Source of the DNA: an uncultured Chloroflexia bacterium
GTDB lineage: Bacteria; Chloroflexota; Anaerolineae; Caldilineales; Caldilineaceae
Assembly (NCBI GenBank): GCA_963715415.1
Contig: CAVQSG010000041.1
Span: 3,885-67,884, forward strand
Length of the DNA: 64,000 nt
Direction of reading: 5' to 3'
The notes under the pieces were generated by a model. It ran no database searches. It worked only from the letters and a program-made list of their open reading frames with translations, and was not told the origin of the DNA. This document shows, piece by piece, positions 466 through 54,211 of the stretch. The translations under genes were made by a program, and so were the position numbers. Position 1 is the stretch's first letter; every line of letters begins with the position of its first letter.

Positions 466-552
466 TTCATTACGGCGTGAATATCACGACAGAAATCCAG
501 CTATGCAGCTTCTGGTAGGGACCCTGCAAGGATTTCTGCAGGGTCCCGCTAC
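466..552 (+). repeat. Dispersed repeat family A, copy 1 (hairpin CAGAAATCC..GGATTTCTG)
   Basis: It is near-identical over about 45 nt to the reverse complement of 56170-56256 (GCGTGAATATCACGACAGAAATCCAGCTATGC) and related to 12522-12612. It contains nested inverted repeats (CAGAAATCC/GGATTTCTG and GGGACCCTGCA/TGCAGGGTCCC). Confidence 0.7.
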
Positions 553-568
553 ATGGTTCGGGAAGCGA

Positions 569-1217
569 TCAGGTTACACCTGTGGACAGGGCGATCAGCC
601 ACTGCGCGGCAAAATAGGTGCCCAGCACAACATGGCGTGACGCGCGAAACGGCGCGCGAAAGCGATCGAAAGCTAAGGCAGAGTCTGAAATGAGGAAGAG
701 CAGCGCTCCGGCCGCGGCGAGGGCGGTGCCGGCGCCGCCCAATGCGTACCAGCGTTCGGCCGCTTGCCAACTCATGATCACGATGACGACGATATAGAGC
801 AGTACAGGCAACCGGACCTCTGCAATGAATGGCCAGAGCAGTAGGAGCATTGTGACGCCAAAGAGCAGATAAAGGAGCAGCAGCCAGAGGGTCAAGACGC
901 GGGCCACCGCCGCCGACAAACGCGCCGGCGTAAAGGATATGCGCGACGAGAAAACTGCCCAGGCCAAAGATGAATCGATCCGACGGCAGCATCAGAAAGA
1001 TGTCCCCGGCCAGAGAGTAGGCCAGGCCGGTAACCACCAACACCTTGTACGGTTGTGGCACCGCGTCGGGCAGCCACAACGCCGTCAGGATGATGAGCGA
1101 CGTGGTCAGCGGCTTGAAGAGATAGAGCCGGCTGCGCGCGTCCGTGTGTGCGGCCCAGATCGTGAGCAGGGCCGAAGCCAGTACCAGGATAAACGATGTC
1201 AGGATCCGAAAAGTCAT
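569..1217 (-). pseudogene. YhhN-family (lysoplasmalogenase-like) membrane protein; frame interrupted near 900-930
   Basis: The N-terminal half (MTFRILTSF...FLVAHILYAGAF) is in the 549..1289 frame. The C-terminal half (..LLFLISDSALAFDRF..LGTYFAAQWLIAL) is in the 569..967 frame. Together they form one typical YhhN protein. Confidence 0.7.
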
Positions 1218-1270
1218 GCGCTGTTCCGTCGTATCTCCACAAACAAGGGTCCAAGTCCGAGTGACCGCCA

Positions 1271-1341
1271 GACCTCCGGGAAGTGGCACCGTAGTTGCGG
1301 TCCCTCTCGACTCGCGTTGGCGGTGCCACTTCCCGGAGGTC
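1271..1341 (-). terminator. Perfect 21-bp inverted repeat (29-nt loop), 13 nt downstream of the CHAT-SIR2 stop codon; no U-tract
   Basis: GACCTCCGGGAAGTGGCACCG (1271-1291) is the exact reverse complement of 1321-1341. A function as terminator, RNA-stability element or protein-binding site is inferred only from its position. Confidence 0.35.
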
Positions 1342-1354
1342 GGCTCACAACTTC

Positions 1355-3504
1355 TTACAGTTCCACACGTTTCCGCAATTCCTCGATAAAATCCGCCACG
1401 CTGCCCCAGTAGATGCTGATGTCGGCCGCCTTCTCGAAGTACTTGGCCAGGTACTCCTGGGCGCGCTCGGGTTCCAGGATGCGGTCCTCCTCCGGGTTGA
1501 TCTGCGCGGCGACGTGGGCAAAGCGCGTCCGTTGAAAACGCCCCTCGCGCTGCATGATGACCCGAAAGAGCACCCGGAAGTCCCAGGCGTCGAGACGGAA
1601 GCCGAGAAAGAGCAGACCGCTGTTGACCAGCGAACTGCGCACATACTTGGGAATCAGGTCGTTGTTGAAGCTGACACCGATGAGGAAATCGAAGTAGTCG
1701 TCCTCGGTCAGGACGATCGACTCCCGGATGCTGATGTTGCCGAACATCTGGAAGATCAGCGGCTCGGCCACCGAAGGGCGGTAGCCGGCCACCTCCTCGG
1801 CCAGCGGCGGCAGGTCATCGCGGCCGTCCAGCAGGTCCAGGTCGTTCAACTCCTTGTTCCAGCGGCAGAGTTCGACCCTGGGCGCGCGCCTGACCGCGGT
1901 CTCGTTGCCTTGTGGGTCGGTGAGGGTGAGTTCGGTGGCTGCCAGCGCATCGTAGAGCGCGTTGGTGGGGTCGGTGGTGATGTAGATGGGGACCGGCAGT
2001 TGCGCCATGATCCAGTGGGGCTCGTGGGGATGGGCCAGGCGGTGGAGCTTCCAGGCCACGCTGTAGAGATCGTTGAGCTTGTTGCCGCCGAGAATGGCAT
2101 CGGTCGCTTCGTCGTAGAGCGCGGCCTCGTCGGGATCGGTAACGTCGATGTGGATCTTTTCCTGCAGTCGCTCGGCCAGATAGTCGGCCAGCTCGTCGCG
2201 CGTGTAGGCGTCGCCGTGGTGGACCGCCATGAACTGGGTGACCTGGGGCAGGTCCTCGCGCTGGTGCGGGGCCAGGGGGAAGTGGTAGCTGTCGGCCCAG
2301 GTCCGCGCGATCTGGCGGCGCGATCCCAGCAGCGACTCGTTGAGCCCAGGCCCCAGGATCGGCGTGCAGCGGCCCCGTTCGATGTTGCGCAGCAGCGACC
2401 GCCACTGTTCCAGCTCGCCCTGCTCGCCGCCGAAGCCGGGCGTGTACCAGATGCGGCCGTTCTTGAGGCGCATGAAGAGTGCCGGCGCCCACCAGTCCGG
2501 CCGGTTGCGGATGGCGCCGCGGGCCACGGCCATGGCCCGGTCCACGTGACCGTCCCGGCGCAGCTCCTCGAAGAAGGCGGCATGAAGTGCGCCATGGTCT
2601 CCATGCCGATATTGCCCTGCATGGCCACCACGGCGGGGATGCCGATCCCGGCCAGGCGCGGACCCAGTGCAGCCAACACGCCGCCGTCGGCCGTGGACCG
2701 GAGTTCGCCTTCGCCCGCGCTTTGGCAGGAGGCGAGCACCACCAGGCGCGGCCGCTCGCGCAGGTCCCGCAGTCGAGCCACCAGCTCGGCACCGGGCACC
2801 GGGGCGGCACGGCCGTCCTCGCCGGCGAGGAAGAGCGCGGGCGCGCCGTCGACCAGCAGGCCGTGGGCAACGAGGTAGAGGATGTCCACGCCGTCGCGCA
2901 GTGCATCGACCATGTGGTTGAGCGTGGTCTCGTCTGCCCCGCTCAGCTCCGTACGCTGGATGGCGTCGCCCAGCCCCGTCCGGGCGCGGGCCAGCTCCTC
3001 CTCGACCTCCACCTTGGCCAGGCCGTACTCCTCCAACCCGGGCGGGTTGGCCACGACCACCAGCGCAGTGAGTGTGCCTTCCGGGCGCAGGCGCACCGGT
3101 CGCCAGTCGGTGCTGCTCAGGTAGCGGGAGAAGAGCGTATTTTCGCTGGTGGAGAGGTAGCCTGTGTCGCCGGGCACCTGGAGCAGCTCCCAGCGCAGGC
3201 CGTGGAGTTCGGGTGCGCTGGGGCCGACAAAGAGGCGGACGCGCAGCGGCAGCTCTGTAGACCGGGCCGTTCGCAGCACAGCCAGCACTTCGGGATCGGC
3301 AAAGAGCTGCTCGCCCAACATCCGGCCGTGGTCGAGTGGCTCCAGCGAGGTCAGCACCTCGGCCGCCAGCGCATCGACGCCTGGACCGGGCCTGCTCAGG
3401 CGCACATCGGCCTCATCGCCCGGCCGGCTGAAGCGCAGTTCGACGCCGTAGGAGTCAGCATCACGGCGGTGGATACTCAGCTCGAGTTCGGCGTGCTCAG
3501 TCAT
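1355..3504 (-). pseudogene. CHAT (caspase-like) protease fused to a SIR2-like (SIR2_2-type) domain; single frame interruption near 2575
   Basis: The CHAT His/Cys dyad motifs are present (ILYLVAHG, LVVLASCQSAG). The CHAT C-terminal helix continues across the frameshift (HFMP/FFEELRRDGHVDRAMAVARGAIRNRPDWWAPALFMRL). The C-terminal ~390 aa carry SIR2_2-like motifs (PILGPGLN, IYITTDPTN, LTEDDYFDF, LLFLGFRLDAWDFRV). The start overlaps the upstream stop by 8 nt (ATGACTGA). Confidence 0.8.
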
Positions 3505-6500
3505 AGTTGTATTCCTGGCGTTCGCTGCCGGTGGGGTACTTCATGTAGCGGGCAATGTTCTCTGTGGCCAGTTCGATCCACTTGTCGGGCGGCCACCACC
3601 AAATGATGGCGGTCCCTTCAAAGCTGGCTTGAACGACCTGACTGCCGTCGTGGTTGAAAAGCGCAGACCTGACCTCACCAGCATGACCTTGGAGCGTCGT
3701 GATCGGGGCACCGCTCCCTACCTCCCAAATGACGGCCTTCCCGTCCTCGCCTGCAGTGACGACCTGGCTACCGCCGTGGTTGAAGGCGGCAGACAAAACC
3801 CAACCGGTATGACCTCGGAGCGTCGTGATCGGGGCACCGCTCCCTACCTCCCAGATGACGGCCTTTCCGTCCTCGCCCGCAGTGACGACCTGTGAGCCGT
3901 CGTGGTTGAAGGCCGCAGACAAGACCTCACCGGTATGACCGGTATGACCTTGGAGCGTCGTAATGGGGTCGCCGGTGTCCACGTCCCAGATGATGGCGGT
4001 ACCGTCCTCGCCCACGGTGACGACCTGACTGCCGTCGTGGTTGAAGGCCGCAGACAAGACCCAACCGGAATGACCTTGCAGCGTCGTGATGGGGTCGCCG
4101 GTGTCCACGTCCCAGATGATGGCGGTACCATCCTCGCCCGCGGTGACGACCTGACTGCCGTCGTGGTTGAAGGCCGCAGACAAGACCCAACCGGAATGAC
4201 CTTGCAGCGTCGTGATGGGGTCGCCGGTGTCCACGTCCCAGATGATGGCGGTACCATCCTCGCCCGCAGTGACGACCTGTGAGCCGTCGTGGTTGAAGGC
4301 CGCGGACCCGACCCAACCGGTATGGCCTCGGAGCGTCGTGATGGGGGCGTCGCTCCCTACCTCCCAGATGACGGCCTTCCCGTCCTCGCCTGCAGTGACG
4401 ACCCGGCGACCGCCGTAGTTGAAGGCGGCAGACAAGAGCCCACCAGCATGACCTTGGAGCGTCGTGATGAGGACGCCGCTCCCTACCTCCCAAATGACGG
4501 CCTTCCCGTCCTCGCCCGCGGTGACGACCTGACTGCCGTCGTGGTTGAAGGCGGCAGACCTGACCCCACCGGTATGACCGTGGAGCGTCGTGATGGGGGC
4601 ACCGCTCCCTACCTCCCAGATGACGGCCTTCCCGTCCTCGCCTGCAGTGACGACCTGACTGCCGTCGTGGTTGAAGGCCGCAGACCTGACCTCACCGGTA
4701 TGACCGGTATGACCTTGGAGCGTCGTGATAGGGGCGCCGCTCCCTGCCTCCCAGATGATGGCCTTCCCCTCAAAGCCGGCGGTAACGACCTGACTGCCGT
4801 CGTGGTTGAAGACAGCAGTCAGGAGCCAACCAGCATGACCTTGCAGCGTCGTGATGGGGTCACCGCTCCCTACCTCCCAGATGATGGCCCTGCCGTCCTC
4901 GCCCGCAGTGACGACTTGACTACCGTCGTGGTTGAAGGCGGCCGACAAGACCCCACCGGCATGACCTTGGAGCGTCGTGATGGGGGCGCCGCTCCCTACT
5001 TCCCAGATGATGGCCTTCCCATCAGAGCCCGCAGTGACGACCCGGCTACCGCCGTGGTTGAAGACCGCAGACCTGACCCAACCGGTATGATCTTGGAAAG
5101 TCGTAATCAGGGCGCCGCTCCCTGCCTCCCAGATGATGGCCTTTCCGTCAGAGCCCGCAGTAACGACTTGACTGCCGTCGTGGTTGAAGGCGGCCGACAA
5201 GACCCAACCGGAATGTCCTTGGAGCGTCGTGATGGGGTCACCACTCCATACTTCCCAGATGATGGCCTTCCCATCGGATCCCGCGGTGACGACCTGGCTG
5301 CCGTCGTGGTTGAAGGCGGCAGACCTGACCTCACCGGCATGACCTTGCAGCGTCGTGATGGGGGCGCCGCTCCCTACCTCCCAGATGATGGCCTTCCCGT
5401 CCTCGCCCGCAGTGACGACCTCACTGCCGTCGTGGTTGAAGGCGGCAGACCTGACCTCACCGGCATGACCTTGCAGCGTCGTGATGGGGGCGCCGCTCCC
5501 TGCCTCCCAGATGATGGCCTTTCCGTCCTCGCCCGCAGTGACGACCTGGCTACCGCCGTGGTTGAAGGCGACAGACCTGACCTCACCGGTATGACCTTGG
5601 AGCGTCGTGATGGGGGCGCCGCTCCCTGCCTCCCAGATGATGGCCGTCCCGTCCTCGCCCGCAGTGACGACCTGGCTGCCGTCGTGGTTGAAGACCGCAG
5701 ACCTGACCTCACCGGCATGACCTTGGAGCGTCGTGATGGGGGTGCCGCTCCCTACCTCCCAGATGATGGCCTTCCCGTCCTCGCTCGCAGTGACGACCTG
5801 ACTGCCGTCGTGGTTGAAAGCGGCCGACAAGACCCCACCGGAATGACCTTGCAGCGTCGTGATGGGGGTGCCGCTCCCTACCTCCCAGATGACGGCCTTC
5901 CCATCAGAGCCCGTAGTGACGACCTGGCTACCGCCGTGGTTGAAGGCTGCAGACCTGACCCCACCGGTATGACCTTGGAGCGTCGTGATGAGGGCGCCGC
6001 TTCCTGCCTCCCAGATGATGGCCTTCCCGTCCTCGCCCGCAGTGACGACCTGACTGCCGTCGTGGTTGAAAACTGCAGACAAGACCCAACCAGCATGACC
6101 TTGGAGCGTCGTGATAGGGGCACCGCTCTCTACCTCCCAGATGATGGCCTTCCCATCAAAGCCGGCGGTGACGACCTGGCTGCCGTCGTGGTTGAAGGCT
6201 GCAGACCCGACCCAACCAGCATGACCTTGCAGCGTCGTGATGGGGTCACCGCTCCCTACCTCCCAGATGATGGCCTTCCCGTCCTCGCCCGCAGTGACGA
6301 CCTCACTGCCGTCGTTGTTGAAGGCAGCTGACCTGACACCACCTTGATGGCGTCCCCAGTTGAGATGCTGCACAATCCGGTGATCGCGCAAGACGTTGAG
6401 AAGGGTCGTCAGCGCCTGTTCGCTGACATAAGTATCGGAATACCAGGTCGTGGCCACGGCATCACGGGCCAGAATGAGCGCGATGTCGCCCTCGGCTTCC

Positions 6501-8259
6501 CTGGCCATGATGCTCAGTTCGCCCGAGCGGGCGCGGCGCTGGGCCCTGCGCGCGTTCTCAGCTTCGGCGACGGCGTCCTGTTCGGCTTCGGAGGCCCGAG
6601 TGGCCTGGGCAATGGCTCTTGTCGCCTCGGTGTTGGCGCGTACAGCTTCCATGGCAGCCACCGTCGACTGCGCCACGGCCGTCTGTTCGGCCTCGAAAGC
6701 CCGCGTGGCCTGGGCAATGGCCCGGGTCGCCTCGGTGTTGGCACGTGCGGCTTCTGTTGCGGCCACTGTTGACTGCCGGCCGGCGCGGCCTGCCTGGGCA
6801 AAGCCGTAGATTGCAGCCACGACGGCCAGCGCAGCCAGCACCAACGCGCCGATGGCCAGCCCGCGAATGGTGCGCTGGCGCCGTGCGTCGCGTTCGGCCA
6901 GCGCACGCTGATCCTGGGCTGCGGCCAGGAAATCGCGTTCGGTCTGGGTGAGGATTCCCGTATGCGCTTCGGCCCACCGTTCAGCCGCCTCCAGTTCGCC
7001 GCCGCCGAAGAGCAGCGCCTTGCTCCGTCCTTGCTCGTCCCACAGCTCGGCCTGGCGTTGTAGTTCGCTTAGATTCTTCAGCCGCCAGGCTTCGTTGTCG
7101 GCCAAGACCGGATCGATGAGCCGGTCGTGGGCCAGCTCGTACCAGGTGGCGCCGCGGCGAGTCTCGGTGCGCACCAGGTGGGCGTCGACCAGCGGATCGA
7201 GCACCGCGTCGTGGTAGCCACCTTCAGCCCGGACCGGGCCGTGGCGCACCTGGGCGCGGATACCGCCCTGGATCAGCGCGCGGCCGAACCAGTCGCGCAG
7301 CGCCCGCTCCGGCACCCGGGTCGACGCGCTCGTTCGCGGCCACCTCGCCGGCGTAGTAGCCGCGCAGCGCCTGGTCGATGTTGCCGAGCCGGGTCACCTC
7401 CTGCACGCCCACGGGCCGGTTGTCGGTGGGCCGGTAGCGCCGCCAGAGATCGCGGCAGACCACCTGGAGCTGCACCGGTTCGACGAAGGGGCCTCTCTCC
7501 TCACGCCGCGCTGCCCGCAGCATCCTCCTCCACCACGGTGCGCAGGTCGTCCACCAGCGCCTTGACGGCCGCGGGCGAAAAGCCGCCGCCGGCCGGTCCT
7601 TCAATGGCCGCAGTGGCCGCGTCGGGACCGAGCAGGGCCAGGGGGAAGGTGTTGGCGAAGCGGGTGGGCACCGGCGCGCTGGAAGGGCTCCAGCCGGGCC
7701 ACGTACTCCTCGCGCACGGCGAAGAGCGCCCAGCGCCGCCAGTTCCCCAGCGCCTGGCCTACCTGCGTGAAGAACTCCTCCTTGGCGTCCCGGTCGGCCG
7801 GCTCGACGGCGATGATCTCCTCGAACTGGTCGAAGATGAGCACGATGGGGTCGGCGGCGGCGCGCACGGGGAAGCGCCGCTCCAGGTAGGCGTCGAAGCG
7901 CAGATCTTCCAGCGCAGTGGGGGGCAGGCGGTCGTCCTCGGCAAAGGCCTCCTCCAGGGACAGCATGGCGCTGAGCAGGTAGCGGTTGGCTGCGCCCGCC
8001 GCCGCAAGCGAGCCGACACGGATGGTGGGCAGCACCCGGAAGAGCTCGCCTTCCAGCCGCTCGGCCAGCCCGCCCCGCGCGGATCAGCGACGTCTTGCCC
8101 GCGCCCGACGGCGAGTGCAGCAACACGATGCGCTCCGCGATCGAGAAGATCGAGCAGGTCCGGGATCTCCTGGTCGCGGCCGTAGATAGGATCGGTCCGC
8201 TCGAAGGGGCGGGGACCGACGAAGGGATTGGCGCGCTGTTCGTTCGGATCGTCGCTCAT
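3497..8259 (-). pseudogene. STAND-type P-loop NTPase with winged helix, hydrophobic helix and 22 WD40 repeats (NLR-like). The ORF 3497..7315 is intact; the N-terminal NTPase part has about 5 frame interruptions
   Basis: The N-terminus is MSDDPNEQRANPFVGPRPFERTDPIYGRDQEI. Walker A is LLHSPSGAGKTSLIRAG and Walker B is IVLIFDQFEE. A VEPVQLQVVCRDLW motif and LVRTETRRGATWYELAHDRLI (wHTH-like) follow. The hydrophobic segment is IRGLAIGALVLAALAVVAAIYGFA. It is followed by 22 units of GHxGxVxSAAFNHDGSQVVTAGEDGKAIIWEVGSGAPITTLQ. Frame changes are at about 8125, 8070, 7670, 7500 and 7318. Confidence 0.8.
3583..6345 (-). repeat. Intragenic tandem array of 22 WD40-coding units of 126 bp (two 132-bp variants with a GHTGHTG insertion)
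   Basis: The 42-aa periodicity is visible in the translation. Several adjacent units are identical or near-identical at the DNA level, for example 4019-4144 versus 4145-4270. Confidence 0.9.
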
Positions 8260-8394: not shown

Positions 8395-8938
8395 GTAGGT
8401 CGGGTCTCCGGCCCGACATGGTCGGTGTGTCACGACCGCTTCGGGAATGCGAGCCCGGTCGGGCAGGGATGCACCGATCTACGATGATCGGACCAGTCTT
8501 GGTAGGTCGGGTCTCCGGCCCGACATGGTCGGTGTATCATGACCGCTTCGCGAATGCGAGCCCGGTCGGGCAAGGATGTACCGATCTACGATGAATGAAC
8601 CAGTCTTGGTAGGTCGGGTCTCCGGCGACTTCGGTCATCACGATCGCTTCGGGAATGCGAGGCCGGTCGGGCAAGGATGCACCGACCTACGATGATCGGA
8701 CCAGGTCTTGGTAGGTCGGGTCTCCGGCCCGACATGGTCGGTGTATCATGACCGCTCCAGGAATGCGAGCCCGGTCGGGCAGGGATGCACCGACCTACGA
8801 TGAATGGACAGGTCTCGGGTGGTAGGTCGGGTCTCCGGCCCGACATGGTCGGTCATCACGAAACGATCGAGGAGGCGGGCCGGTCGGGCAGGGATGCACC
8901 GACCTACGATGAATGGACGAGTCTTGGTTGGTCGGGTC
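8395..8938. repeat. Tandem array of 5 full copies plus one partial copy of a 102-111-bp hairpin-rich unit
   Basis: Units start with GTAGGTCGGGTCTCCGG at 8395, 8502, 8609, 8711 and 8822. A partial sixth copy, GTTGGTCGGGTC, starts at 8927. The whole units are conserved, so there are no unique spacers. Each unit has GTCGGG..CCCGAC and GGTCGG..CCGACC hairpins and a long-range GTAGGTCGG/CCGA(C/T)CTAC pairing. Confidence 0.9.
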
Positions 8939-9378
8939 AATAGACGAAGGGAATGAGACGCCAGGTGTCTTTCTGGTAAAGCGTGTAGTTCGGGTAGTGG
9001 GCGACCAACAGTCGTTCCTCGTACTGTAACTTGACGACCAGGTCGACGACGAGCAGGAGCAGTAGCGCCAGGCGGAGCCACGAAGAGCTGTCGGCCACCA
9101 GTGCCGCACAGACGACGATCAACGCCGCGTACATGGGGTGGCGAATCGAGCGCGTAGGGTCCTGACTTGACCATGGTCCCCGCCGCCCTGATCTCGGGCG
9201 TGATGTTGAAATTGCCGATGCGCTGGACGACGACGGCCCAGAGACCCAAGGCAATGCCGGCACCCTCCAACAGCAGGAGCAACGGGTTGCGCGCCAGCAA
9301 TGGGCCGGTCAGCGCGATGGCCAGCAGACAGGCGAACTGGATCGTCACCAGCAGATAGGACTTGGCGCGCCCGCTCAT
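8937..9378 (-). pseudogene. Isoprenylcysteine carboxyl / phospholipid methyltransferase-family membrane protein; 1-nt frame interruption near 9152
   Basis: MSGRAKSYLLVTIQFACLL...NITPEIRAAGTMVKSGPY is in one frame and RSIRHPMYAALIVVCA...YEERLLVAHYPNYTLYQ in the next. Removing one base restores the GPYRSIRHPMY motif. Confidence 0.7.
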
Positions 9379-17190: not shown

Positions 17191-18653
17191 ACCACAATAT
17201 TCGTATTCTCGACCCGGCGCGCTGGCTGTTGCTGCTCGGCCTCTTCATCACCGTGGGTTTGGGCGTTGCTGCCACACCGATCGTGGGCCAGGTTGATGTT
17301 GATATACGCTATCATGTCGTCGCTCCCGGCGAAACCTTGAGCGAAATCGCCAAGCAATACGACGTCGATGTGGATACGTTGACAATTCTGAACGGTATCT
17401 CCGACGCCGATGAAATCTTTGCCGGGCAGCAACTTCGTCTACCGCGCAGCGTTGTGTCGTCTATTCCCGGCGAACAGGCGACAACGGAATCGGATCGGGA
17501 GAGCGAAGGTGATCAAACTAAGCGCTCGGGTCCCGCCGGTCTTCGAGTGGACGAGAGTGAAGCAACCGCTGACGGGCACGAATCCGCCGATGCGAAACCC
17601 ACCAAGGAGGCCGTGGAAAGCGCGACGCCAAAGGCTTCCGAGCCGTCTCCTGCTACCATTGACAGCGTCCCTCGCATGATCGTCGATCCCATGCTGGCGA
17701 CCACACGCAATCGCACATATACAGTCCGGCTCAATGACACTCTGGCTGATGTTGCGCTGCGCACCGGTGTTAGTCATGCTGCCCTCAGTAAGTTGAACCG
17801 GCTAACACGCGACGCTCCGCTGCGCGCCGGGCAGAGCTTGCTGCTGCCGGCCACACCGCGTGATCTCCAGATGACGACACCGGCGCAGACCGTGATCGTC
17901 CAGCCCGGCGACAGCTTGAGCGCCATCGCCGTCGAGCATGAGATAGCCCTCCCCGACCTGATGCGCGCCAATGGACTCTCCAATCCCGATGCCATTGTCA
18001 TCGGTCAGTCGCTGATCGTCCCGCCCAAACCGCTGCAGGCGGAGGAACAGATGCGACGCCGGGTGGGTCCGCCGCGTAGCGGCTTTGACTACTATACCGT
18101 CCAGCAGGGCGACACGTTGTCGGAAATCGGTCGTGATTTCGACACCCCTGTCCTCGCCCTGCTGGAGTACAACGGACTGCCCGACGAGCAGACGGTCTAC
18201 TCGGGGCTTGAGCTACGCATCCCGTTCGGCGCGCCGCCGTTGCCCCAAGTCTTGCCACCGGCGCCCATTTCGGGCACAAGCTTCATGGTTAGTCTGAGCC
18301 GCCAACAGTGTTGGCTATTTCACGGCAGCGAGATTGCGCAGAGCTGGACGTGCAGCACCGGCTACGGAGATTGGATCACCCGTACCGGCACGTTCAAAAT
18401 CCAGACCAAGTTGGAGATGGCGAAGAGCGGTGCATACCGACTGGACATGCCCTACTGGCTCGGTCTCTATGATGTAGGTGAGTTCGAGAACGGGATCCAC
18501 GGTATTCCGGTGGAATGGGAAACGGGCGAGAAGCTCTGGGACGGATTGATCGGCCAACCGGCGACCTTCGGCTGCGCCATGTTGGCCGATGACGCCGCCG
18601 CCTTTCTGTTCGATGCATCGTATCTCGGTATGCCGGTCCACGTGATCGAATAA
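17187..18653 (+). CDS. Protein with four LysM repeats and an L,D-transpeptidase (YkuD) catalytic domain
   Basis: Four LysM units are present (for example [24 protein letters not shown]). The C-terminal region has HGIP...ATFGCAML, a His/Cys YkuD motif. The start forms an ATGA overlap with the ABC gene, and a GGGAGGAG SD is present. Confidence 0.85.
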
Positions 18654-18694
18654 CTTGGCGAGGGACGAATCAACTTTGCACGACGGGTTTCAAT

Positions 18695-19775
18695 ATGTTC
18701 ATCGATGTAGATCGGCCGGCCGGTGTGCGTGAGGGGGAAAGTCTGGACATCGACGCCCTGGAGACCTATCTGGTTTCCGTGCTGCCCGGCATGTACGGGC
18801 AGCTGCATGTTCAGCAATTCCTCAGCGGTTATTCGAATCTCACCTATCTGCTTACGTTGGGCGATAAAGAGCTGGTCTTGCGCAGACCCCCCTTTGGCGC
18901 GGCCATCAAGTCCGCCCACGACATGGGTCGCGAGTTCCCGCGTCCTGTCGGGGCTTGCGCCGATATATGACAAGGCACCGCAGCCACTTCTCTATTGTCA
19001 GGACGAGAGTGTGATCGGTGTGCCGTTCTATGTCATGGAGAGGGTGACAGGGGTCATTTTGCGACCGGGCAGAGGTACGGACCCGGCGTTGACTCCAGCA
19101 CGCATGCGATTACTTTCCAACGCGGTCGTGAACAACCTCGCGACCATCCACGAGATTGATGTGCATGCCGCTGGACTTGCCGATTTGGGCCGCCCGGACG
19201 GATACGTGCAGCGCCAGATTGCCGGATGGTCAAAACGTTACCGCAACGCACAGTCGGACATCATCCCGGCGCTTGACTCGGCCCAGCCCTGGCTTGAGGG
19301 CAATCGGCCTGTCGAAGCTGGAGCCACGTTGATTCATAATGACTACAAATATGACAATGTGGTGCTGGATCGTGAAAACTTGGGCCGCATCGTTGCGGTA
19401 CTCGATCGGGAGATGTGCACGGTGGGCGATCCGCTGATGGATCTCGGGACGACTCTCGGATATTGGATCGAACCGGGTGACCCCAACGCGATGGTCTCCA
19501 TGTTTGGGCTGACGGCATTGCCCGGCAACTTGACCCGCAGCCAAGTGTTGGCCCGCTACCAACAGGCAAGTGGACGGTATGTGGAAAAGCCACTTTTCTA
19601 CTACGTCTACGGCGTGTTCAAGATCGCGGTCATTGTCCAGCAGATCTACGCGCGATTTCTGCACGGAGTGACGCAAGATGCGCGCTTCGAAGTTCTGATC
19701 GATGTGGTGCGCGCCTGCGGGCAAATGATTGAGTTGGCGATAGATAGTGACCGACTGTCGTCGTCTGCGGAATAG
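18695..19775 (+). pseudogene. Phosphotransferase (APH/choline-kinase-like) family protein; frame interruption near 18940
   Basis: The N-terminal 80 aa (..QQFLSGYSNLTYLLTLGDKELVLRRPP) are in frame 18695. The rest is in frame 18723, with LIHNDYKYDNVVLD and MCTVGDPLMDLG motifs. Confidence 0.75.
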
Positions 19776-41744: not shown

Positions 41745-42170
41745 GCTGTAAATCCTCGTTCGGACCCGTCAAATTCCAACGGGTCCGGACGGATCCCCCA
41801 TCTGTCGCATTTGAGAGACCGTGTGCAGGGTAGCCGTTTTCGGATGCCGGGGATTTGATTACCCTGAATTCGAACGAGGCCATCGCAACATTGGTCGTCA
41901 CACCATTTGGGGTACGACGCTAAGGCCGGTTGGTGGTACGACGGTTGCCGGTGCGTCCGCTCCAGAATCGCTCGCCGCCGTGACCGCTACTTGTCGGACC
42001 AAACCGGTTCTGAATTCGGGCGCAACTGGGCGATCATACAATACCGGCACGGAATCCCTCTGCCAATTGGCCGGCAATATCGACAGCGACTTTGTCCTTG
42101 CGCACGGTTCCTGGACACCGGTGTGGCTGGAGAGATTTACCATCAGCATGACACTTCAAAGGAGACGAAC

Positions 42171-43756
42171 ATGGCAATTTCACTACCCGACGGCGTGAAG
42201 ATAACCGGCCCCATTTCGGCAAATGTAGAGACAGTTCTGACCGGCGATGCACTGGCATTTATCGCCGAACTCCAACGCCGATTTAACGGCCGGCGAGAGG
42301 AACTGCTGGCCGCGCGTCGCGAGCGACAGGCAGCTATCGACGGCGGCATGACGCCCGGCTTTCTTCCCGACACTGCCCCTGTTCGTGCAGGAGATCGGAC
42401 TGTGGCACCGGCGCCGGCCGATCTCAATGACCGGCGGGTTGAGATCACCGGGCCTACCGAACGGAAGATGATGATCAACGCGCTCAACTCCGGGGCCAAG
42501 GTGTTTATGGCCGATTTTGAAGACGCCCTCTCGCCGACCTGGGAGAATGTAATCGACGGACAGATCAACTGTAGCGACGCCGTGCGCCGTACCATTGAGT
42601 TTGCCGAATCCGGATGGACGTCAGTACACACTGAACGAGACAGTCGCCACCCTGTTGATCCGGCCCCGCGGCTGGCATTTGACGGAGAAGCACGTGCACG
42701 GTCGACGGCGCGGCAGATCTCGGGCAGTCTCTTTGACTTCGGTCTCTATATGTATCCGCAATGCAGCGAATTGCTGGCCCGCGGCAGCGGTCCGTATTTC
42801 TATCTGCCCAAGCTGGAAAGCCATCTGGAGGCACGGCTCTGGAACGACGTGTTTGTCGATGCGCAGGAACAGTTGGGAATACCTCATGGCAGCATCCGGG
42901 CCACCGTGCTAATCGAGACAATTCTGGGGCGCTGGAGATGGAGGAGATTCTCTATGAAATCCGCGACCATGCCGCCGGGCTCAACGCTGGACGATGGGAC
43001 TACATCTTTAGCACAATCAAGAAGTTCGCCCGGCGTGAGAAGATGCTGCTGCCCGATCGTGGACAGGTCACCATGACTGTGCCCTTCATGCGCGCATACA
43101 CCGAACTCATGGTACGTACTTGTCACAAGCGGGGCGCACATGCAATCGGTGGTATGGCGGCCTTCATCCCCAACCGCCGCGATCCGGAGGTGACCGAGAA
43201 CGCACTCGCCAAAGTGCGGGAAGACAAGCTACGTGAGTTTGGCGACGGCTGTGACGGAACCTGGGTGGCGCATCCCGATCTGGTTCCGACCGTGCTCGAT
43301 GTGGCCAATGACTTCTTTGGCAATAAGCCGAATCAGAAGGAGATGTTGCGTGAGGATGTCAACGTGACCGCCGCCGAGATCACTTCTGTGGGCGTGCCCG
43401 GCGGCACGATCACAGAGGCAGGTCTGCGCATGAACGTAAGCGTCGCTTTGCAGTACGTCGACTCGTGGCTCAATGGCAACGGCGCTGCCGCCATCAACAA
43501 TTTGATGGAGGACGCCGCCACCGCGGAGATTTCCCGGTCACAGATCTGGCAGTGGATGCACCACGGTGCAAAGCTGGACGATGGCCGAGCAATCACGTCG
43601 GAACTGTACGTCCAGGTGCGGGCGGAAGAATTGGAGAAGCTGGGTGGCGCGGCAGTTTCACGCTATGGCGAATCGGCCGAATTGCTCGACAGACTCTGCC
43701 TTAACGACGAATTTATCGACTTCTTGACCGCGCCAGCCTACGAGTTGCTGGCCTAA
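42171..43756 (+). pseudogene. aceB: Malate synthase A; about 3 frame interruptions (near 42600, 42700 and 42920)
   Basis: The segments [14 protein letters not shown]...[14 protein letters not shown] (frame 0), [15 protein letters not shown] (frame 1), [15 protein letters not shown] (frame 0) and [27 protein letters not shown]...WVAHPDLV (frame 2) concatenate into a complete MSA. Confidence 0.85.
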
Positions 43757-46043: not shown

Positions 46044-47411
46044 TTAACCTGCAGCCGGGACAAAGCGGTAGCCGCGCCCACGCTCGTTTTCGATCGTGCC
46101 GACAGGAGGGGTTGCCGTGGCCAGCTGCAGACGCAAGCGGCGTATGGCTTCCTGCACACGCCGGGGCGAGGCATCGGGGCGTTTCCAGACGTCGGTCAAG
46201 AGTTGCTCGGGCGAAACGATGGCATTGCTGCGTACGCGCAGATATCGCAGCAGCGCTTCTTCCGTCTTGGTCAACTCCGCGTAGATCGGCAGCGATTCCA
46301 GGGGAACGCCGGACGGCGCCGCCGGAACCGCAACCTGCGCTACCGTCAGCCTCGATTCGATGAATTCTGCGAAGAGCGGCGAATAGAGCTTGTAGCCCCC
46401 CTCGCTGAAGATAACCACCGCCTGGTTGATCAGCCAGTTCATCAGCATCGTCTGTTGAGGAACGAGTTCGGAAGCCGGCAGCGGCGACTGTGCAAGCTGG
46501 GCCAACAGGGTTTCGATCATTTCGGGCGTGCCGCGCTGTGGTTTTTGCAGTTGACGCCACTGCGTTGCGAAAAGCAGACGTCCGTGCTCGGCAAGACGCA
46601 ATCGGATCAGATCGCCATGTTCAACACCGATGATCTGGCCGGGCGCAAGATATTGTTGCACTTCGGCAACGATGTCACCGATACGACGTAGGAGAAAGGG
46701 GTGTGTGCCTGTAAGTTCCAGCAATAGATCGCCCAATTCGTGGATCGCCGGAAACTGCTCGGCATATGATTCGATCCAGCTACGGGCCGCCGTCGCTTCG
46801 ATCAGGCCGATATAGAGCTGCGTCATCACATTGAAGAGTGGCGACGCCGCCAAATCCCGATCCAGATCGTGCAGAGGTTGTTGTGACGCCACCACCAACG
46901 CCAGTTCCAAGGTCAACGGTCGCAACTCGTCGGCACTCTCGCGGCTGATCAACTGGTCTTCGAAGACACGGTCAAAGTTGTCCATCATGATGACCAGTCG
47001 GTAGCCCATTTGGTTGAGCTGTCGACCGATGAGCCAGGCTTGACGCGCATCGCCCGATTGCTTCTCGATGGTAGACCAGTCCAATTCAATGCGTTCCTGT
47101 TCTTCGAGCTGTTGGCGTAAATGCTGCAGCAGGTACCCGAGCAGGTTTTCACGCACATCTTGCCAACTACAATCGACCATGCTGACGATGATGTTGACCC
47201 CATCGTCAAAAGCGGGCGGCCTCCAGGGTGCGTTTTCCTCGCTCAGCAGCGGTCCATCAGCGGACGCCAGGTGTTGAAGGAGGCTCGACTTGCCCGTGTA
47301 TTTTGTGCCGACCAATGTGAAACTTCCCGGTTGCGATCCAAGCACACCGGACGTGATCTCGCGTAACACACGCTGCCGTCCATAGAAGTGGTTTCTCGGT
47401 GCGTCCATCAT
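46044..47411 (-). CDS. P-loop ATPase (STAND/Arch_ATPase-like) with a C-terminal OmpR/PhoB-type winged-helix DNA-binding domain
   Basis: FYGRQRVLREI...LVGTKYTGKSSLLQHL is Walker A and LVIMMDNFD is Walker B. The C-terminal LTKTEEALLRYLRVRSNAIVSPEQLLTDVW...RRLRLQL...ENERGRGYRF is trans_reg_C-like. The start ATG at 47409-47411 overlaps the upstream TGA (ATGA). Confidence 0.8.
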   Translation of the reverse strand: MMDAPRNHFYGRQRVLREITSGVLGSQPGSFTLVGTKYTGKSSLLQHLASADGPLLSEENAPWRPPAFDDGVNIIVSMVDCSWQDVRENLLGYLLQHLRQQLEEQERIELDWSTIEKQSGDARQAWLIGRQLNQMGYRLVIMMDNFDRVFEDQLISRESADELRPLTLELALVVASQQPLHDLDRDLAASPLFNVMTQLYIGLIEATAARSWIESYAEQFPAIHELGDLLLELTGTHPFLLRRIGDIVAEVQQYLAPGQIIGVEHGDLIRLRLAEHGRLLFATQWRQLQKPQRGTPEMIETLLAQLAQSPLPASELVPQQTMLMNWLINQAVVIFSEGGYKLYSPLFAEFIESRLTVAQVAVPAAPSGVPLESLPIYAELTKTEEALLRYLRVRSNAIVSPEQLLTDVWKRPDASPRRVQEAIRRLRLQLATATPPVGTIENERGRGYRFVPAAG

Positions 47412-50400: not shown

Positions 50401-50806
50401 TGAGTCGACTGCCCTGCCAGTGCGCCGGCATTGCCAGTAATTCTGCAGGATCCGCTGGGAAATCAGTCGTCTGCGGTTGTGCCGGGATGGAAGCAAGTCG
50501 TGCGCCCGACAGGTTGTATTCACTGACCGGCGCAGCCAGGCACACAAAATCCCGGCATAATTGAGCAACTTGTGGATGACAGACCTCGGCGATCTGCACG
50601 GAGGTCACGGCGCCGAGACAGACGGCTTTGTGCAGCAAGGCCGCGGATTGCAACAATTCATCCGCCCCCCAACATTCCAAAACGCCGGCGACGGCTTGCC
50701 CCTCCCGGCAGGCGTCTACGACCGTTGGGAGCGCACCACGGCTCTCGAGTGACGCACAGAGTTCGCGCGCATCCGATAAAATTGTTTCCTCTGGCTTCAT
50801 GTACAT
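47408..50806 (-). pseudogene. RelA/SpoT-homologue scaffold (HD-like, synthetase-like, TGS, Cys-rich ZFD, ACT) fused to a C-terminal P-loop ATPase; frame interruptions near 50298 and 49155
   Basis: The HD-like region reads AVAGVLECWGADELLQSAALLHKAV. The synthetase-like region reads CYHALYLVHRLFMPV..NGYRGISTGV..RINLRIATYAMNEVNHWGLAAF. The TGS region is YVFSPHGQLFKFQRGSTVIDYAYNVHSELADRCSRFYVNGQP and the ZFD region is LAQCCLPRPGEDIVGR..LKVHRSDC. The ACT region is ARIEMTALNDDGLLGDAIAQI. The ATPase has FFGRARDLSRIVDWL..LRGQKRVGKTSLLLHL and LVLLLDEF. Confidence 0.75.
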
Positions 50807-52903: not shown

Positions 52904-52975
52904 TCGATCACGTATCCAAGTGCTATCAGGCGCCCCTTTTTTGAGCGCCATTTGTGAATAAAGGAGCAAACCGCG

Positions 52976-54211
52976 ATGAAGAAGTTGTTGATCCTCGGCG
53001 CCGGGACGGCCGGCACCATGGTCGCCAATCGACTCTCCCACGAGCTGGATCCATCTGAGTGGCAGATCACGATCGTGGACCAGGATGAAGTTCACTATTA
53101 CCAGCCGGGTTTCTTGTTCATTCCCTTTGGTACCTACGCCAAGGCAGATGTGGTCAAACCCAAGCGGGATTATCTTCCGATGGGCATCGAGATCATTATC
53201 TCCGAGATCGAGGCCATCGAAAGCGGACCACAATCGGGTTCGCATCAAGAAGGACAATCGTTACCTCAATTACGACTATCTCATCATTGCCACCGGATCG
53301 CGCACGGTTCCCGAAGAGACGCCGGGACTGGAAGAGCATGAATGGCGCAAGAGCATCTTCGATTTCTACACGGTTGACGGCGCCGTTGCTCTTCACCGCT
53401 TTCTGCGCACATGGGAGGGTGGGCGTCTGGTCCTCAACGTGGCCGAAATGCCCATCAAGTGCCCGGTCGCGCCGCTGGAATTCCTCTTCCTGGCCGACTA
53501 CTACTTCCACCAGCAGGGCATGCGGGACCGCGTCGAACTGACACTGGCGACACCGTTGCCCGCTGCGTTTCACCAAGCCCATAGCGGCCGGTCTGCTAGG
53601 CGACATTCTGGAACAGAAGGGCATCAACGTCGTGACCGAGTTCAATATCGAGCGCGTGGAACCTGACGAGAAAGCCATCTATTCCTACGACGAACGGAAA
53701 ATCGACTATGACCTTCTGGTGAGTGTGCCGGTCAACATGGGGTCAGAGGTCATTGAACGCTCAGGGCATGGGGGACGATTTGATGTTCGTGCCGACGGAG
53801 AAGCACACGCTGAAGGCGCAAGAACACGACAACATCTTTGTGCTCGGGGATGCAACAGATCTGCCCAGCTCCAAAGCCGGGTCCGTGGCCCACTTCCAGG
53901 TGGATGTCTTCATCGACAACTTCCTGCGCTATCTCGATGGGCTGGATCTGCGCCCGACTTTTGACGGCCATGCCAATTGTTACATCGAATCCGGTTTCGG
54001 CAAGGGCTTCCTGATCGATTTCAACTACGACGTCGAACCACTGCCGGGCAAGTTCCCGTTGCCTGGCGTCGGACCCTTTTCACTGCTTCAAGAATCGAAG
54101 GTCAACCACTGGGGCAAGATGATGTTTCGCTGGGTCTACTGGAACATTCTACTCAAGGGCAAGGAATTGCCGATTCCGGCTCAGATGAGCATGGCCGGGA
54201 AATGGCAGTAA
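52976..54211 (+). pseudogene. Sulfide:quinone oxidoreductase-like NAD(P)/FAD-dependent oxidoreductase; about 3 frame interruptions (near 53225, 53572 and 53765)
   Basis: MKKLLILGAGTAGTMVANRL is the FAD Rossmann motif. LIIATGS, CPVAPLEFLFLADYY, IFVLGDATDLPSSKAGSVAHFQ and HANCYIESGFGKG are spread over four successive frames. Confidence 0.75.

What the first reader, a model, noticed from the sequence alone, without database searches (positions are those of the whole stretch)
1355..8259. NLR-like two-gene module: STAND NTPase-WD40 sensor coupled to a CHAT-SIR2-like dual effector
A ~1590-aa STAND P-loop NTPase with 22 WD40 repeats ends 8 nt inside the start of a ~716-aa protein (ATGACTGA overlap). 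That protein joins a CHAT caspase-like protease, with an intact His/Cys dyad, to a SIR2_2-like domain. STAND NTPases with repeat sensors and CHAT, SIR2 or TIR effectors are the logic of prokaryotic NLR-like immunity and conflict systems (Avs, bNACHT and computationally described STAND conflict systems). Possibly unusual here is that both effector types sit on one trans-encoded polypeptide. The sensor protein also carries a hydrophobic helix between the NTPase and the propellers. This is a candidate abortive-infection or programmed-death module.
Basis: partly seen in the sequence, partly recalled or inferred. Interest (0 to 1): 0.8.

Follow-up and report, generated by a model that had tools for sequence, protein, structure and literature searches.

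The report
Membrane STAND sensor with caspase-like partner
This is one frameshift-riddled copy of a widespread but unstudied bacterial two-gene module: a membrane-anchored ATPase switch with an outward-facing WD40 sensor, paired with a caspase-like protease fused to a SIR2-like domain that has lost its catalytic histidine.

Summary
On the minus strand, a ~1,585-aa nSTAND1 NTPase with 22 WD40 repeats (8259-3497) overlaps by 8 nt (ATGACTGA) a 716-aa CHAT + SIR2_2 protein (3504-1355). The reading frame breaks five times in the NTPase domain and once in the CHAT-SIR2 gene.

- The CHAT-SIR2 fusion is common: at least 576 species, about 4,000 clusters at 50% identity. It sits next to this NTPase type in about 65 of 81 loci examined.
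- The SIR2-like domain has the fold but not the chemistry. The catalytic His is Phe/Tyr/Leu/Met in all 197 family members, so "dual effector" is unlikely.
- The hydrophobic helix is a conserved membrane anchor. Charge bias (N-in, C-out) predicts that the WD40 sensor lies outside the cytoplasm.

At least five other genes in the window are also frameshifted, including malate synthase. The repaired NTPase keeps 109 of 113 conserved residues. Assembly error is therefore more likely than long decay, but the cluster of five shifts remains unexplained.

No PADLOC system matches and I found no paper describing the pair. I judge it a new variant of the known STAND + caspase-like protease kind, of moderate interest.

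The parts
3497..8259 (-). Gene for the ~1,585-aa nSTAND1 NTPase - membrane anchor - WD40 protein, interrupted by five frameshifts in this assembly
   Evidence: ORFs and three-frame translation; repaired product matches Pfam nSTAND1 and homologues; length
7019..8226 (-). nSTAND1 P-loop NTPase domain (repaired aa 12-411). Walker A at 8088-8114, Walker B at 7817-7843.
   Evidence: Pfam PF20703 profile 1-378 of 379, E 1e-29; motif coordinates; 109 of 113 columns that are >=90% conserved agree with 40 homologues
8127..8142 (-). Frameshift 1 (+1 type), within GATCGCGGAGCGCATC. The consensus AERIVLL resumes in the next frame.
8065..8078 (-). Frameshift 2 (+1 type), within GCGGGGCGGGCTGG. Either a 1-nt insertion in a G run or a 4-nt GGGC duplication.
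7663..7681 (-). Frameshift 3 (+1 type), within GCCGGTG
7497..7512 (-). Frameshift 4 (+1 type), within GCGGCGT
7307..7322 (-). Frameshift 5 (+1 type), within CCCGGG
6788..6862 (-). Predicted single transmembrane helix (25 uncharged residues). The N-side flank is rich in Arg.
   Evidence: a comparable segment is present in 65 of 75 homologues; K+R count 5.9 on the N side against 2.8 on the C side
6570..6776 (-). 105-nt tandem duplication encoding an Ala/Thr/Glu-rich helical stalk after the membrane helix
   Evidence: Tandem Repeats Finder; translation
3593..6352 (-). 22 highly similar WD40 repeats (42 aa / 126 nt units)
   Evidence: Pfam WD40, 22 stretches; Tandem Repeats Finder; 85% nt and 80.5% aa mean pairwise identity, with variation concentrated at unit positions 5, 7 and 23
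3497..3504 (-). 8-nt overlap ATGACTGA between the NTPase stop and the CHAT-SIR2 start
1355..3504 (-). Gene for the 716-aa CHAT + SIR2-like protein, with one frameshift
2480..3327 (-). CHAT caspase-fold protease domain. His214 codon at 2863-2865, Cys260 codon at 2725-2727.
   Evidence: Pfam PF12770, 100.8 bits; dyad invariant in 197 of 197; Foldseek matches to DdvA, SAVED-CHAT and Csx29
2570..2583 (-). Frameshift 6 (1-nt deletion type) within ATGCCGCCTTC. Repair gives FMPAFFEEL, matching the family consensus FMPVFFxEL.
1358..2377 (-). SIR2-fold domain lacking the catalytic His. Phe588 codon at 1742-1744; Asp512 codon at 1970-1972 in place of the catalytic Asn.
   Evidence: Pfam PF13289, 56.7 bits; Foldseek matches to ThsA, KomC, SIR2-HerA and DSR2; residue alignment to ThsA and KomC; family column counts

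Best explanation
The locus is one copy of a widespread, conserved and experimentally uncharacterised two-gene module. Its frame is broken six times in this assembly. The host is a Caldilineaceae-like Chloroflexota bacterium.

Gene 1 encodes a single-pass membrane protein. A cytoplasmic nSTAND1 P-loop NTPase is followed by one transmembrane helix, a helical stalk and 22 near-identical WD40 blades. The blades are predicted to lie outside the cytoplasm. They vary mainly at the three known ligand-contact positions.

Gene 2 encodes a cytosolic caspase-fold CHAT protease with an intact His-Cys dyad. It is fused to a SIR2-fold domain that keeps its Rossmann glycine loop but has lost the catalytic His.

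Proposed mechanism (inferred):
1. A ligand binds the WD40 surface.
2. This drives NTP-dependent oligomerisation of the NTPase at the membrane.
3. The oligomer recruits or activates the CHAT protease.
4. The protease cleaves cellular targets, or in three-gene relatives a C25-like protease or TIR protein, causing growth arrest, death or a signalling response.

The SIR2-like domain would act as a non-catalytic adaptor, oligomerisation domain or nucleotide-binding regulatory domain, not as an NADase.

Shown: domain identities, the pairing of the two genes, the loss of catalytic residues, the conservation of the membrane helix and its charge bias. Inferred: topology, order of activation and biological role.
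For: - Domains.
- Pairing: 65 + 1 of 81 loci have the NTPase gene adjacent on the same strand with tight spacing.
- CHAT dyad: invariant in 197 of 197. The SIR2 His column is F 173, Y 13, L 10, M 1, and never H. Residue-level alignments place the window's Phe opposite the His of the HG motif in SeThsA and in KomC; a KomC H146N variant is deposited in the PDB.
- Membrane helix: present in 65 of 75 homologues; 7 of the other 10 are truncated ORFs. Positive-inside bias favours N-in in 60 of 66.
- Sensor swapping behind the same anchor: WD40, TPR, FGE-sulfatase.
- WD40 variation: concentrated at unit positions 5, 7 and 23. These correspond to the R1-2, R1 and D-1 top-face hotspots of PMC3419727.
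- Extra conflict-type domains in relatives: a C25-like protease gene in 34 of 81 loci, sometimes with TIR, and C25+CHAT+SIR2 and CHAT+TIR+SIR2 fusions.
- Repaired NTPase: keeps 109 of 113 conserved columns.
Against: - No experiment exists for any family member that I could find.
- No PADLOC system or candidate matches.
- Neighbours here are metabolic genes. A Pfam survey of 101 neighbouring ORFs in 67 related loci shows no recurring restriction, CRISPR, toxin-antitoxin or integrase genes.
- No full-length copy occurs in the plasmid or phage collections.
- The topology rests on hydrophobicity and charge bias only.
- Loss of the canonical His does not formally exclude a non-canonical activity, because other residues are invariant (for example H664, Q668 and D603).
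- In this genome the gene order is inverted relative to most relatives, and the NTPase reading frame is broken.
Confidence: 0.6

Rival explanations
1. One reading: a cytosolic NLR-like antiphage sensor that activates a two-headed effector. The SIR2 domain would deplete NAD+ and the CHAT domain would cleave proteins, giving abortive infection.
For: - The SIR2 fold is real and is closest to the antiphage NADases ThsA, KomC, SIR2-HerA and DSR2, with weak PADLOC ThsA hits.
- The GxG Rossmann loop is conserved (G385 in 195 of 197).
- STAND + repeat sensor + protease follows NLR-like logic. TIR appears in some relatives.
Against: - The catalytic His is absent in all 197 family members. The Asn is Asp here and is variable across the family.
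- The conserved membrane anchor places the sensor outside the cytoplasm.
- There is no Avs, NACHT or PADLOC match.
- There is no defence-island context.
Confidence: 0.12
2. The locus is a genuine pseudogene in this genome. The six frame breaks are real, and the module, probably acquired horizontally, is dead.
For: - Five shifts fall within about 0.85 kb (8142-7307). That is roughly 50 times the density in the rest of the window.
- Homopolymer density there is not elevated.
- One shift could be a 4-nt GGGC duplication, which is not a typical read error.
- Locus GC is 66.8% against 58.2% for the rest of the window, which suggests foreign origin.
Against: - At least five unrelated genes in the window are also split by frameshifts. 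Malate synthase is one; it is a single ~527-aa protein in all relatives.
- The repaired NTPase retains 109 of 113 conserved columns and has no in-frame stops.
- The remaining 3.8 kb of the same gene and the 2.1-kb partner gene carry zero and one break respectively. Uniform decay would not produce this pattern.
- All five shifts go in the same direction, which suggests a systematic error.
- A 2.7-kb array of 126-nt repeats assembled intact suggests long reads, which are prone to indels (inference).
Confidence: 0.3
3. The module is not an immune or death system. It would be a transmembrane signalling device, sensing the envelope, neighbouring cells or developmental cues, that uses regulated proteolysis by CHAT to control a cytoplasmic regulator.
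For: - The sensor is predicted to be extracytoplasmic.
- The best structural match to the CHAT half is DdvA, a transmembrane anti-sigma factor with a CHAT domain (PMC11506125).
- Neighbourhoods are housekeeping genes, with no link to mobile elements.
- The module is enriched in filamentous Chloroflexota.
Against: - Near-identical repeats that vary at ligand-contact positions, swapped sensors, several paralogous modules per genome (L007, L049, L051, L059) and occasional TIR or C25 partners are hallmarks of conflict systems.
- No conserved regulator (sigma or anti-sigma factor, transcription factor) is linked to the module.
Confidence: 0.22

Closest known systems
nSTAND1-type STAND NTPase conflict systems (Kaur, Iyer, Burroughs, Aravind; eLife 2020/2021; Pfam PF20703)
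   Same: The repaired NTPase matches PF20703 over the whole profile. It has C-terminal repeat or FGE-type sensors and is associated with caspase-superfamily peptidases. The family is found mainly in filamentous or multicellular bacteria.
   Different: The effector is encoded in trans without a detectable shared adaptor domain. The partner is a CHAT + degenerate SIR2 fusion, which those papers do not mention (no occurrence of 'SIR2' or 'CHAT' in the 2020 text).
Bacterial Apaf-1-like STAND proteins with WD40 propellers and N-terminal caspase-like protease (Nature 2026, PMC13581612)
   Same: STAND NTPase + WD40 propeller sensor + caspase-fold protease.
   Different: Here the protease is a separate polypeptide. 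The NTPase belongs to nSTAND1, not the AP-ATPase clade. A membrane helix separates the NTPase from the propellers.
Avs (antiviral STAND) systems, including Avs2/Avs4 with protease-effector modules, and Avs5/SAMD9 with a SIR2-like domain
   Same: A STAND switch with a repeat sensor that activates a protease or SIR2-type module on oligomerisation.
   Different: No PADLOC Avs model matches. The Avs effector is fused in cis at the N-terminus and the sensor is cytosolic TPR. The Avs5 SIR2 domain is an active NADase, whereas this one lacks the catalytic His.
ThsA / KomC / SIR2-HerA / DSR2 antiphage SIR2 NADases
   Same: The same fold by Foldseek (probability 1.0, E 1e-8 to 1e-5) and by the Pfam SIR2_2 match.
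   Different: The catalytic His is replaced by Phe and the Asn by Asp. There is no SLOG, HAM or HerA partner.
CHAT proteases: SAVED-CHAT, Csx29 (Craspase), separase, DdvA
   Same: CHAT fold and His-Cys dyad. DdvA is a precedent for coupling CHAT to sensing across the membrane.
   Different: The activator here would be a STAND NTPase, not cyclic oligonucleotides, a CRISPR complex or a sigma/anti-sigma pair. The CHAT domain here is cytosolic.
Highly-Repetitive prokaryotic WD40 proteins (Hu et al. 2017, PMC5587647)
   Same: Internal repeat identity is 0.805, above the paper's threshold of 0.7. Diversity is concentrated at the predicted hotspot positions.
   Different: That paper catalogues the repeat class only. 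It does not describe the NTPase, membrane anchor or CHAT-SIR2 context.

Membership tests
nSTAND1 STAND NTPase (PF20703) | Full-length profile match above the curated cut-off | tested here: met
The unrepaired fragments gave only a sub-threshold 22.5 bits.
nSTAND1 STAND NTPase (PF20703) | Intact Walker A and Walker B motifs | tested here: met
   SPSGAGKTS and VLIFDQFEE are present and match columns that are >=90% conserved.
nSTAND1 STAND NTPase (PF20703) | Uninterrupted reading frame | tested here: not met
   Five frameshifts in this assembly. Whether they are real is undetermined.
CHAT protease (PF12770) | Profile match above the cut-off and caspase-like fold | tested here: met
   100.8 bits against 24. 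Foldseek matches DdvA, SAVED-CHAT, Csx29, separase and caspase-9.
CHAT protease (PF12770) | Catalytic His-Cys dyad | tested here: met
   H214 and C260 are invariant in 197 of 197 relatives.
SIR2 NADase effectors (ThsA, DSR, SIR2-HerA, KomC type) | SIR2 / Rossmann fold | tested here: met
   PF13289 at 56.7 bits against 24.5. Foldseek probability 1.0 to ThsA and KomC.
SIR2 NADase effectors (ThsA, DSR, SIR2-HerA, KomC type) | Catalytic His of the 'HG' motif | tested here: not met
   Phe588 aligns to the His of the ThsA and KomC HG motifs. The family column is F/Y/L/M in 197 of 197.
SIR2 NADase effectors (ThsA, DSR, SIR2-HerA, KomC type) | Catalytic Asn of the 'TTN' motif | tested here: not met
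   Asp512 in the window. The family column is N 85, D 52, others 60.
SIR2 NADase effectors (ThsA, DSR, SIR2-HerA, KomC type) | NAD+ hydrolysis | not testable with these tools
   Needs a biochemical assay.
Avs / AVAST | Match to Avs family models; effector fused in cis at the N-terminus; cytosolic TPR-like sensor | tested here: not met
   No PADLOC Avs hit at E <= 0.01. Only 11 residues precede the NTPase domain. The sensor is WD40 and lies behind a membrane helix.
bNACHT | NACHT NTPase module | tested here: not met
   Pfam lists nSTAND1, AAA_16 and nSTAND6 only.
Adaptor (EAD)-coupled conflict systems of Kaur et al. | The same adaptor domain on both the NTPase and the effector proteins | tested here: inconclusive
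   BLASTP of the two N-termini finds nothing, and the NTPase has no room for an N-terminal domain. Remote-homology profile comparison was not run.
Anti-phage defence system (general) | Enrichment next to known defence genes or on mobile elements | tested here: inconclusive
   No such signal among 101 neighbouring ORFs of 67 loci, nor in the plasmid and phage collections. No statistical census was done.
Anti-phage defence system (general) | Protection against phage | not testable with these tools
   Needs heterologous expression and phage challenge.
Highly-Repetitive WD40 proteins | Internal repeat identity of at least 0.7 | tested here: met
   Mean pairwise aa identity 0.805 over 21 units. The definition comes from PMC5587647.

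The most novel reading that the evidence does not exclude
The family is an 'outside-in' NLR: a transmembrane STAND receptor. Its hypervariable WD40 (or TPR/FGE) ectodomain would detect an extracytoplasmic ligand such as a phage particle, an envelope-damaging agent or a non-kin neighbour. The signal would cross the membrane and assemble a cytoplasmic NTPase platform. That platform would activate a caspase-like protease through a SIR2 fold that has been repurposed from an NADase into an adaptor or oligomerisation domain. This would be a bacterial counterpart of receptor-triggered caspase activation.
Probability: 0.3. Interest if true: 0.72.

Novelty: new variant of a known kind. Interest (0 to 1): 0.45.

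Why it matters
STAND/NLR-type immunity in bacteria has so far been characterised for cytosolic sensors that recognise phage proteins inside the cell. If the topology prediction holds, this family would show that the same switch can read signals from outside the cytoplasm and couple them to a caspase-like protease. The family spans at least 576 species in Chloroflexota, Actinomycetota, Acidobacteriota, Proteobacteria and other phyla.

It would also be a clear case of an immune NADase fold (SIR2) retained without its catalytic histidine. That parallels the variant SIR2-like domain next to the STAND NTPase of animal SAMD9/9L.

Culturable carriers exist, including Cupriavidus pinatubonensis, Serratia ureilytica and Cellulomonas septica, so the idea can be tested. 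This particular copy is a poor starting point because its frame is broken in the assembly.

Tried and rejected
- Source record: I tried to find the contig through exact protein look-ups and found nothing. The cluster look-up shows only that the proteins are singletons from one 92,099-bp NCBI/ENA contig.
- Plasmid search: megablast of the flank against plasmids gave no match.
- Fusions: I looked for CHAT-SIR2/NTPase fusions as evidence of direct contact and found none in 81 loci. The long ORFs in L040, L058, L019 and L008 are upstream extensions in another frame.
- Shared adaptor: none found by BLAST.
- Promoter and terminator scan: nothing above the shuffled expectation.
- GC3-phase scan for frameshifts: too noisy at 58% GC. 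I used it only to pick candidates, which I then tested with Pfam.
- Homopolymer explanation: I tested whether homopolymer density explains the cluster of five frameshifts. It does not.
- Literature: eight searches found no paper describing a CHAT-SIR2 + nSTAND1 pair. Kaur et al. 2020 'System 4' (EACC1 + caspase) is a different system.
- Neighbour scan: the first attempt exceeded the residue limit and was repeated on 101 ORFs.

Full report
**Anatomy**

Both genes lie on the minus strand. The upstream gene starts at the ATG at 8259 and ends at the stop at 3497-3499. Its last 1,272 codons form one open frame (7315-3497). The first ~945 nt are spread over six frame pieces.

When the pieces are joined where the homologous reading resumes, the product is ~1,585 aa. 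The N-terminal 632 residues then match Pfam nSTAND1 from profile position 1 to 378 of 379 (104.7 bits, cut-off 27.1). Unrepaired, only a sub-threshold 22.5-bit fragment was seen. Walker A (SPSGAGKTS, 8088-8114) and Walker B (VLIFDQFEE, 7817-7843) are intact.

Downstream of the NTPase domain come, in order:
- a 25-residue uncharged segment (6862-6788);
- an Ala/Thr/Glu-rich stretch containing a 105-nt tandem duplication (6570-6776);
- 22 WD40 repeats.

The second gene (3504-1355) overlaps the first by ATGACTGA. It encodes a CHAT domain (aa 60-342) followed by a SIR2_2-like domain. One frame break lies near 2578. Inserting one base restores FMPAFFEEL against the family consensus FMPVFFxEL.

**The fusion is common and the pair is conserved**

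A search with the repaired CHAT-SIR2 protein returned more than 2,784 homologues. The best 120 are all full-length ~690-aa CHAT + SIR2_2 proteins at 48-66% identity. A profile search against 1.84 billion cluster representatives gave 23,992 hits at E <= 1e-3 and 3,981 at E <= 1e-30. The best 150 are full length.

The 79 best loci come from:
- Chloroflexota, 48;
- Acidobacteriota, 12;
- Actinomycetota, 7;
- Proteobacteria/Desulfobacterota, 6;
- Verrucomicrobiota, 2;
- other phyla, 4.

The loci examined were these 79 plus two contigs carrying close homologues. In 65 of these 81 loci, an NTPase homologous to the window's lies immediately downstream on the same strand. In L009 it lies upstream, as in the window. 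Most of the remaining loci lack flanking sequence. The distance from the CHAT-SIR2 stop to the NTPase start is mostly -30 to +50 nt.

The window therefore carries the rarer NTPase-first order. Even its closest relative (P0001, 66% identity) has the usual order. No fusion of the two proteins was found.

**The SIR2-like domain has the fold but not the catalytic residues**

An AlphaFold2 model (pLDDT 76.6) matches ThsA, KomC, SIR2-HerA, SPARSA and DSR2 with its C-terminal half. Its N-terminal half matches DdvA, SAVED-CHAT, Csx29 and separase.

Sequence alignments to two solved SIR2 NADases place the window's IFQMFGN opposite VYKLHGD (SeThsA) and IIKFHGD (KomC). An H146N variant of KomC is among the deposited structures. 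The window's ITTD lies opposite WTTN.

Across 198 aligned family members:
- the His column is F 173, Y 13, L 10, M 1, and never H;
- the Asn column is N 85, D 52, other 60;
- the CHAT His and Cys are present in 197 of 197;
- the first Gly of the Rossmann loop is present in 195 of 197.

By the criteria used for ThsA, DSR2 and KomC (established knowledge of these enzymes), the domain is not an NADase. I infer a non-catalytic role: docking to the NTPase, oligomerisation (ThsA and KomC form filaments, as their PDB entry titles state), or binding of a nucleotide-type ligand. A non-canonical activity cannot be excluded, because other polar residues are invariant.

**The hydrophobic helix is a conserved membrane anchor**

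In 65 of 75 homologous NTPase ORFs, a strongly hydrophobic 19-residue window lies just after the NTPase module, typically at aa 450-530. Seven of the ten without one are truncated ORFs. The uncharged span averages 24 residues.

The 15 residues on the N side carry on average 5.9 Lys+Arg, against 2.8 on the C side. The N side is the richer in 60 of 66 cases. By the positive-inside rule, the NTPase is cytoplasmic and everything after the helix is outside. This is a prediction, not a measurement.

Behind the same anchor, relatives carry WD40, TPR or FGE-sulfatase domains. This is the sensor swapping typical of NLR-like proteins.

**The WD40 array**

The 42-aa units share on average 85% nucleotide and 80.5% amino-acid identity. 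That places the protein in the 'Highly-Repetitive' WD40 class, defined by identity of at least 0.7 (PMC5587647).

The most radical variation is at unit positions 5 (W/G/E), 7 (L/R/G) and 23 (E/S/F). Using the DHSW-tetrad rule of PMC3419727, these are R1-2, R1 and D-1, the three top-face residues that usually contact ligands. This fits a diversifying binding surface. I did not run a formal selection test.

**A third component in relatives**

In 34 of 81 loci, a Peptidase_C25-like (caspase-fold) protein is encoded on the same strand directly beside the pair, sometimes with a C-terminal TIR domain. Single polypeptides exist that combine C25 + CHAT + SIR2, CHAT + TIR + SIR2, or CHAT-SIR2 + a second protease + AAA_5. 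These support a conflict-system or protease-cascade reading. The window has no such gene.

**Context**

Malate synthase relatives are 76-87% identical; those that carry organism names are from Caldilineaceae, Caldilinea or Litorilinea. The host is therefore a Caldilineaceae-like filamentous Chloroflexota bacterium.

The neighbours of the locus are YhhN, a PEMT-like protein, an alpha-amylase-family enzyme, PhyH, a fatty-acid desaturase, an ABC transporter and a LysM-YkuD protein. This is not a defence island.

Locus GC is 66.8% against 58.2% for the rest of the window. Other 6.9-kb windows range from 56.4% to 60.3%. This hints at horizontal acquisition.

Among 101 neighbouring ORFs in 67 related loci, only C25, SH3_3, WD40 and C39_2 domains recur. 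No full-length copy occurs in the plasmid or phage collections. PADLOC models give no significant system hit on either repaired protein.

**The frameshifts**

Split Pfam domains show that other genes in the window are also broken:
- malate synthase (TIM-barrel profile positions 20-91 in one frame and 94-245 in the next), a single ~527-aa protein in all relatives;
- YhhN and APH;
- an FAD-type oxidoreductase and a PEMT-like gene (weaker, sub-threshold matches).

Frame breaks are thus a property of the contig, not of this locus alone. The repaired genes look undamaged.

Against a simple error model, five breaks fall within 0.85 kb while the next 3.8 kb of the same gene has none. Homopolymer density is not higher in that stretch, and one break could be a 4-nt duplication. 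Uniform decay would not give this pattern either.

All five shifts go in the same direction. Four sit at short C/G runs. I rate an assembly or sequence-quality cause as more likely (about 0.65-0.7) than a real pseudogene (about 0.3). The clustering remains unexplained.

**Comparison with the literature, and verdict**

nSTAND1 was named by Kaur et al. 2021 as a STAND clade in predicted conflict systems. WD40-bearing bacterial STANDs with caspase-like domains are noted in a 2026 survey. Protease-effector modules attached to STANDs have been studied for Avs2 and Avs4. SAMD9 carries a variant SIR2-like domain next to a STAND NTPase.

None of the papers I could search describes a CHAT + SIR2-like protein paired with a membrane-anchored nSTAND1 protein. 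I therefore class the family as a new variant of a known kind. This locus is one compromised copy of it. Interest is moderate. The predicted outward-facing sensor and the decayed SIR2 domain are the features worth testing.

Noticed in passing
window 41907-43756 (+): Malate synthase A is split by a frameshift near 42,930. TIM-barrel profile positions 20-91 are in one ORF and 94-245 in the next. All relatives encode a single ~527-aa protein. The public gene call for this contig is a 237-aa fragment.
   Followed up: yes
window 549-1289 (-), 18593-19775 (+), 52958-54208 (+), 8746-9378 (-): YhhN and the APH phosphotransferase each have their Pfam domain split across reading frames. An FAD-type oxidoreductase and a PEMT-like gene show the same pattern on weaker, sub-threshold matches. 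Indels therefore occur throughout the window. Both insertion and deletion types occur.
   Followed up: partly
window 7307-8142 (-): Five same-direction frameshifts fall within 0.85 kb, yet the remaining 3.8 kb of the same gene has none. Homopolymer density does not explain this, and neither uniform decay nor random read error fits.
   Followed up: partly
window 1355-8259: The locus is a GC outlier: 66.8% against 58.2% for the rest of the window, with other 6.9-kb windows at 56.4-60.3%. This suggests horizontal acquisition.
   Followed up: partly
window 46044-50568 (-): Three overlapping ORFs: AAA_16 + Trans_reg_C (a SARP/AfsR-like regulator), AAA_16 with a weak nSTAND1 match, and a TGS-domain ORF. 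The overlaps of 58 and 235 nt may hide further frameshifts. They are not related to the module studied.
   Followed up: no
window 4289-6331 (+) and 1295-2878 (+): Long antisense ORFs (680 and 527 aa) lie opposite the WD40 array and the CHAT-SIR2 gene. They are by-products of high GC and repeats, not genes.
   Followed up: partly
L043:7256-9952, L005:16228-18225, L006:6234-8183 and 31 other loci: A third conserved gene lies beside the pair in 34 of 81 related loci. It encodes a Peptidase_C25-like caspase-fold protein, in L043 with a C-terminal TIR domain. It is absent from the window.
   Followed up: yes
L007, L049, L051, L059: Two or more copies of the CHAT-SIR2 + NTPase module lie within one 20-kb stretch. 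Loss of the outer genes of such a tandem could produce the NTPase-first order seen in the window.
   Followed up: no
L050:2693-5425, L079:12112-15720; L064, L066, L073: In these relatives, the partner NTPase carries an FGE-sulfatase or a TPR domain instead of WD40 behind the same membrane helix.
   Followed up: yes
P0211, P0223, P0227 (cluster representatives): Variant single-chain architectures: CHAT + TIR + SIR2-like; CHAT-SIR2 + a second caspase-fold domain + AAA_5 ATPase; and Peptidase_C25 + CHAT + SIR2-like.
   Followed up: partly
plasmid-collection records NZ_LT559118.1 (Nonomuraea gerenzanensis, 11.85 Mb) ~6,400,499-6,401,365 and NZ_CP098809.1 (Ensifer adhaerens, 1.70 Mb) ~1,599,201-1,600,043: These records match only the SIR2-like half (24-26% identity). 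No gene is listed under either match. This SIR2 variant may also exist outside the CHAT fusion.
   Followed up: no
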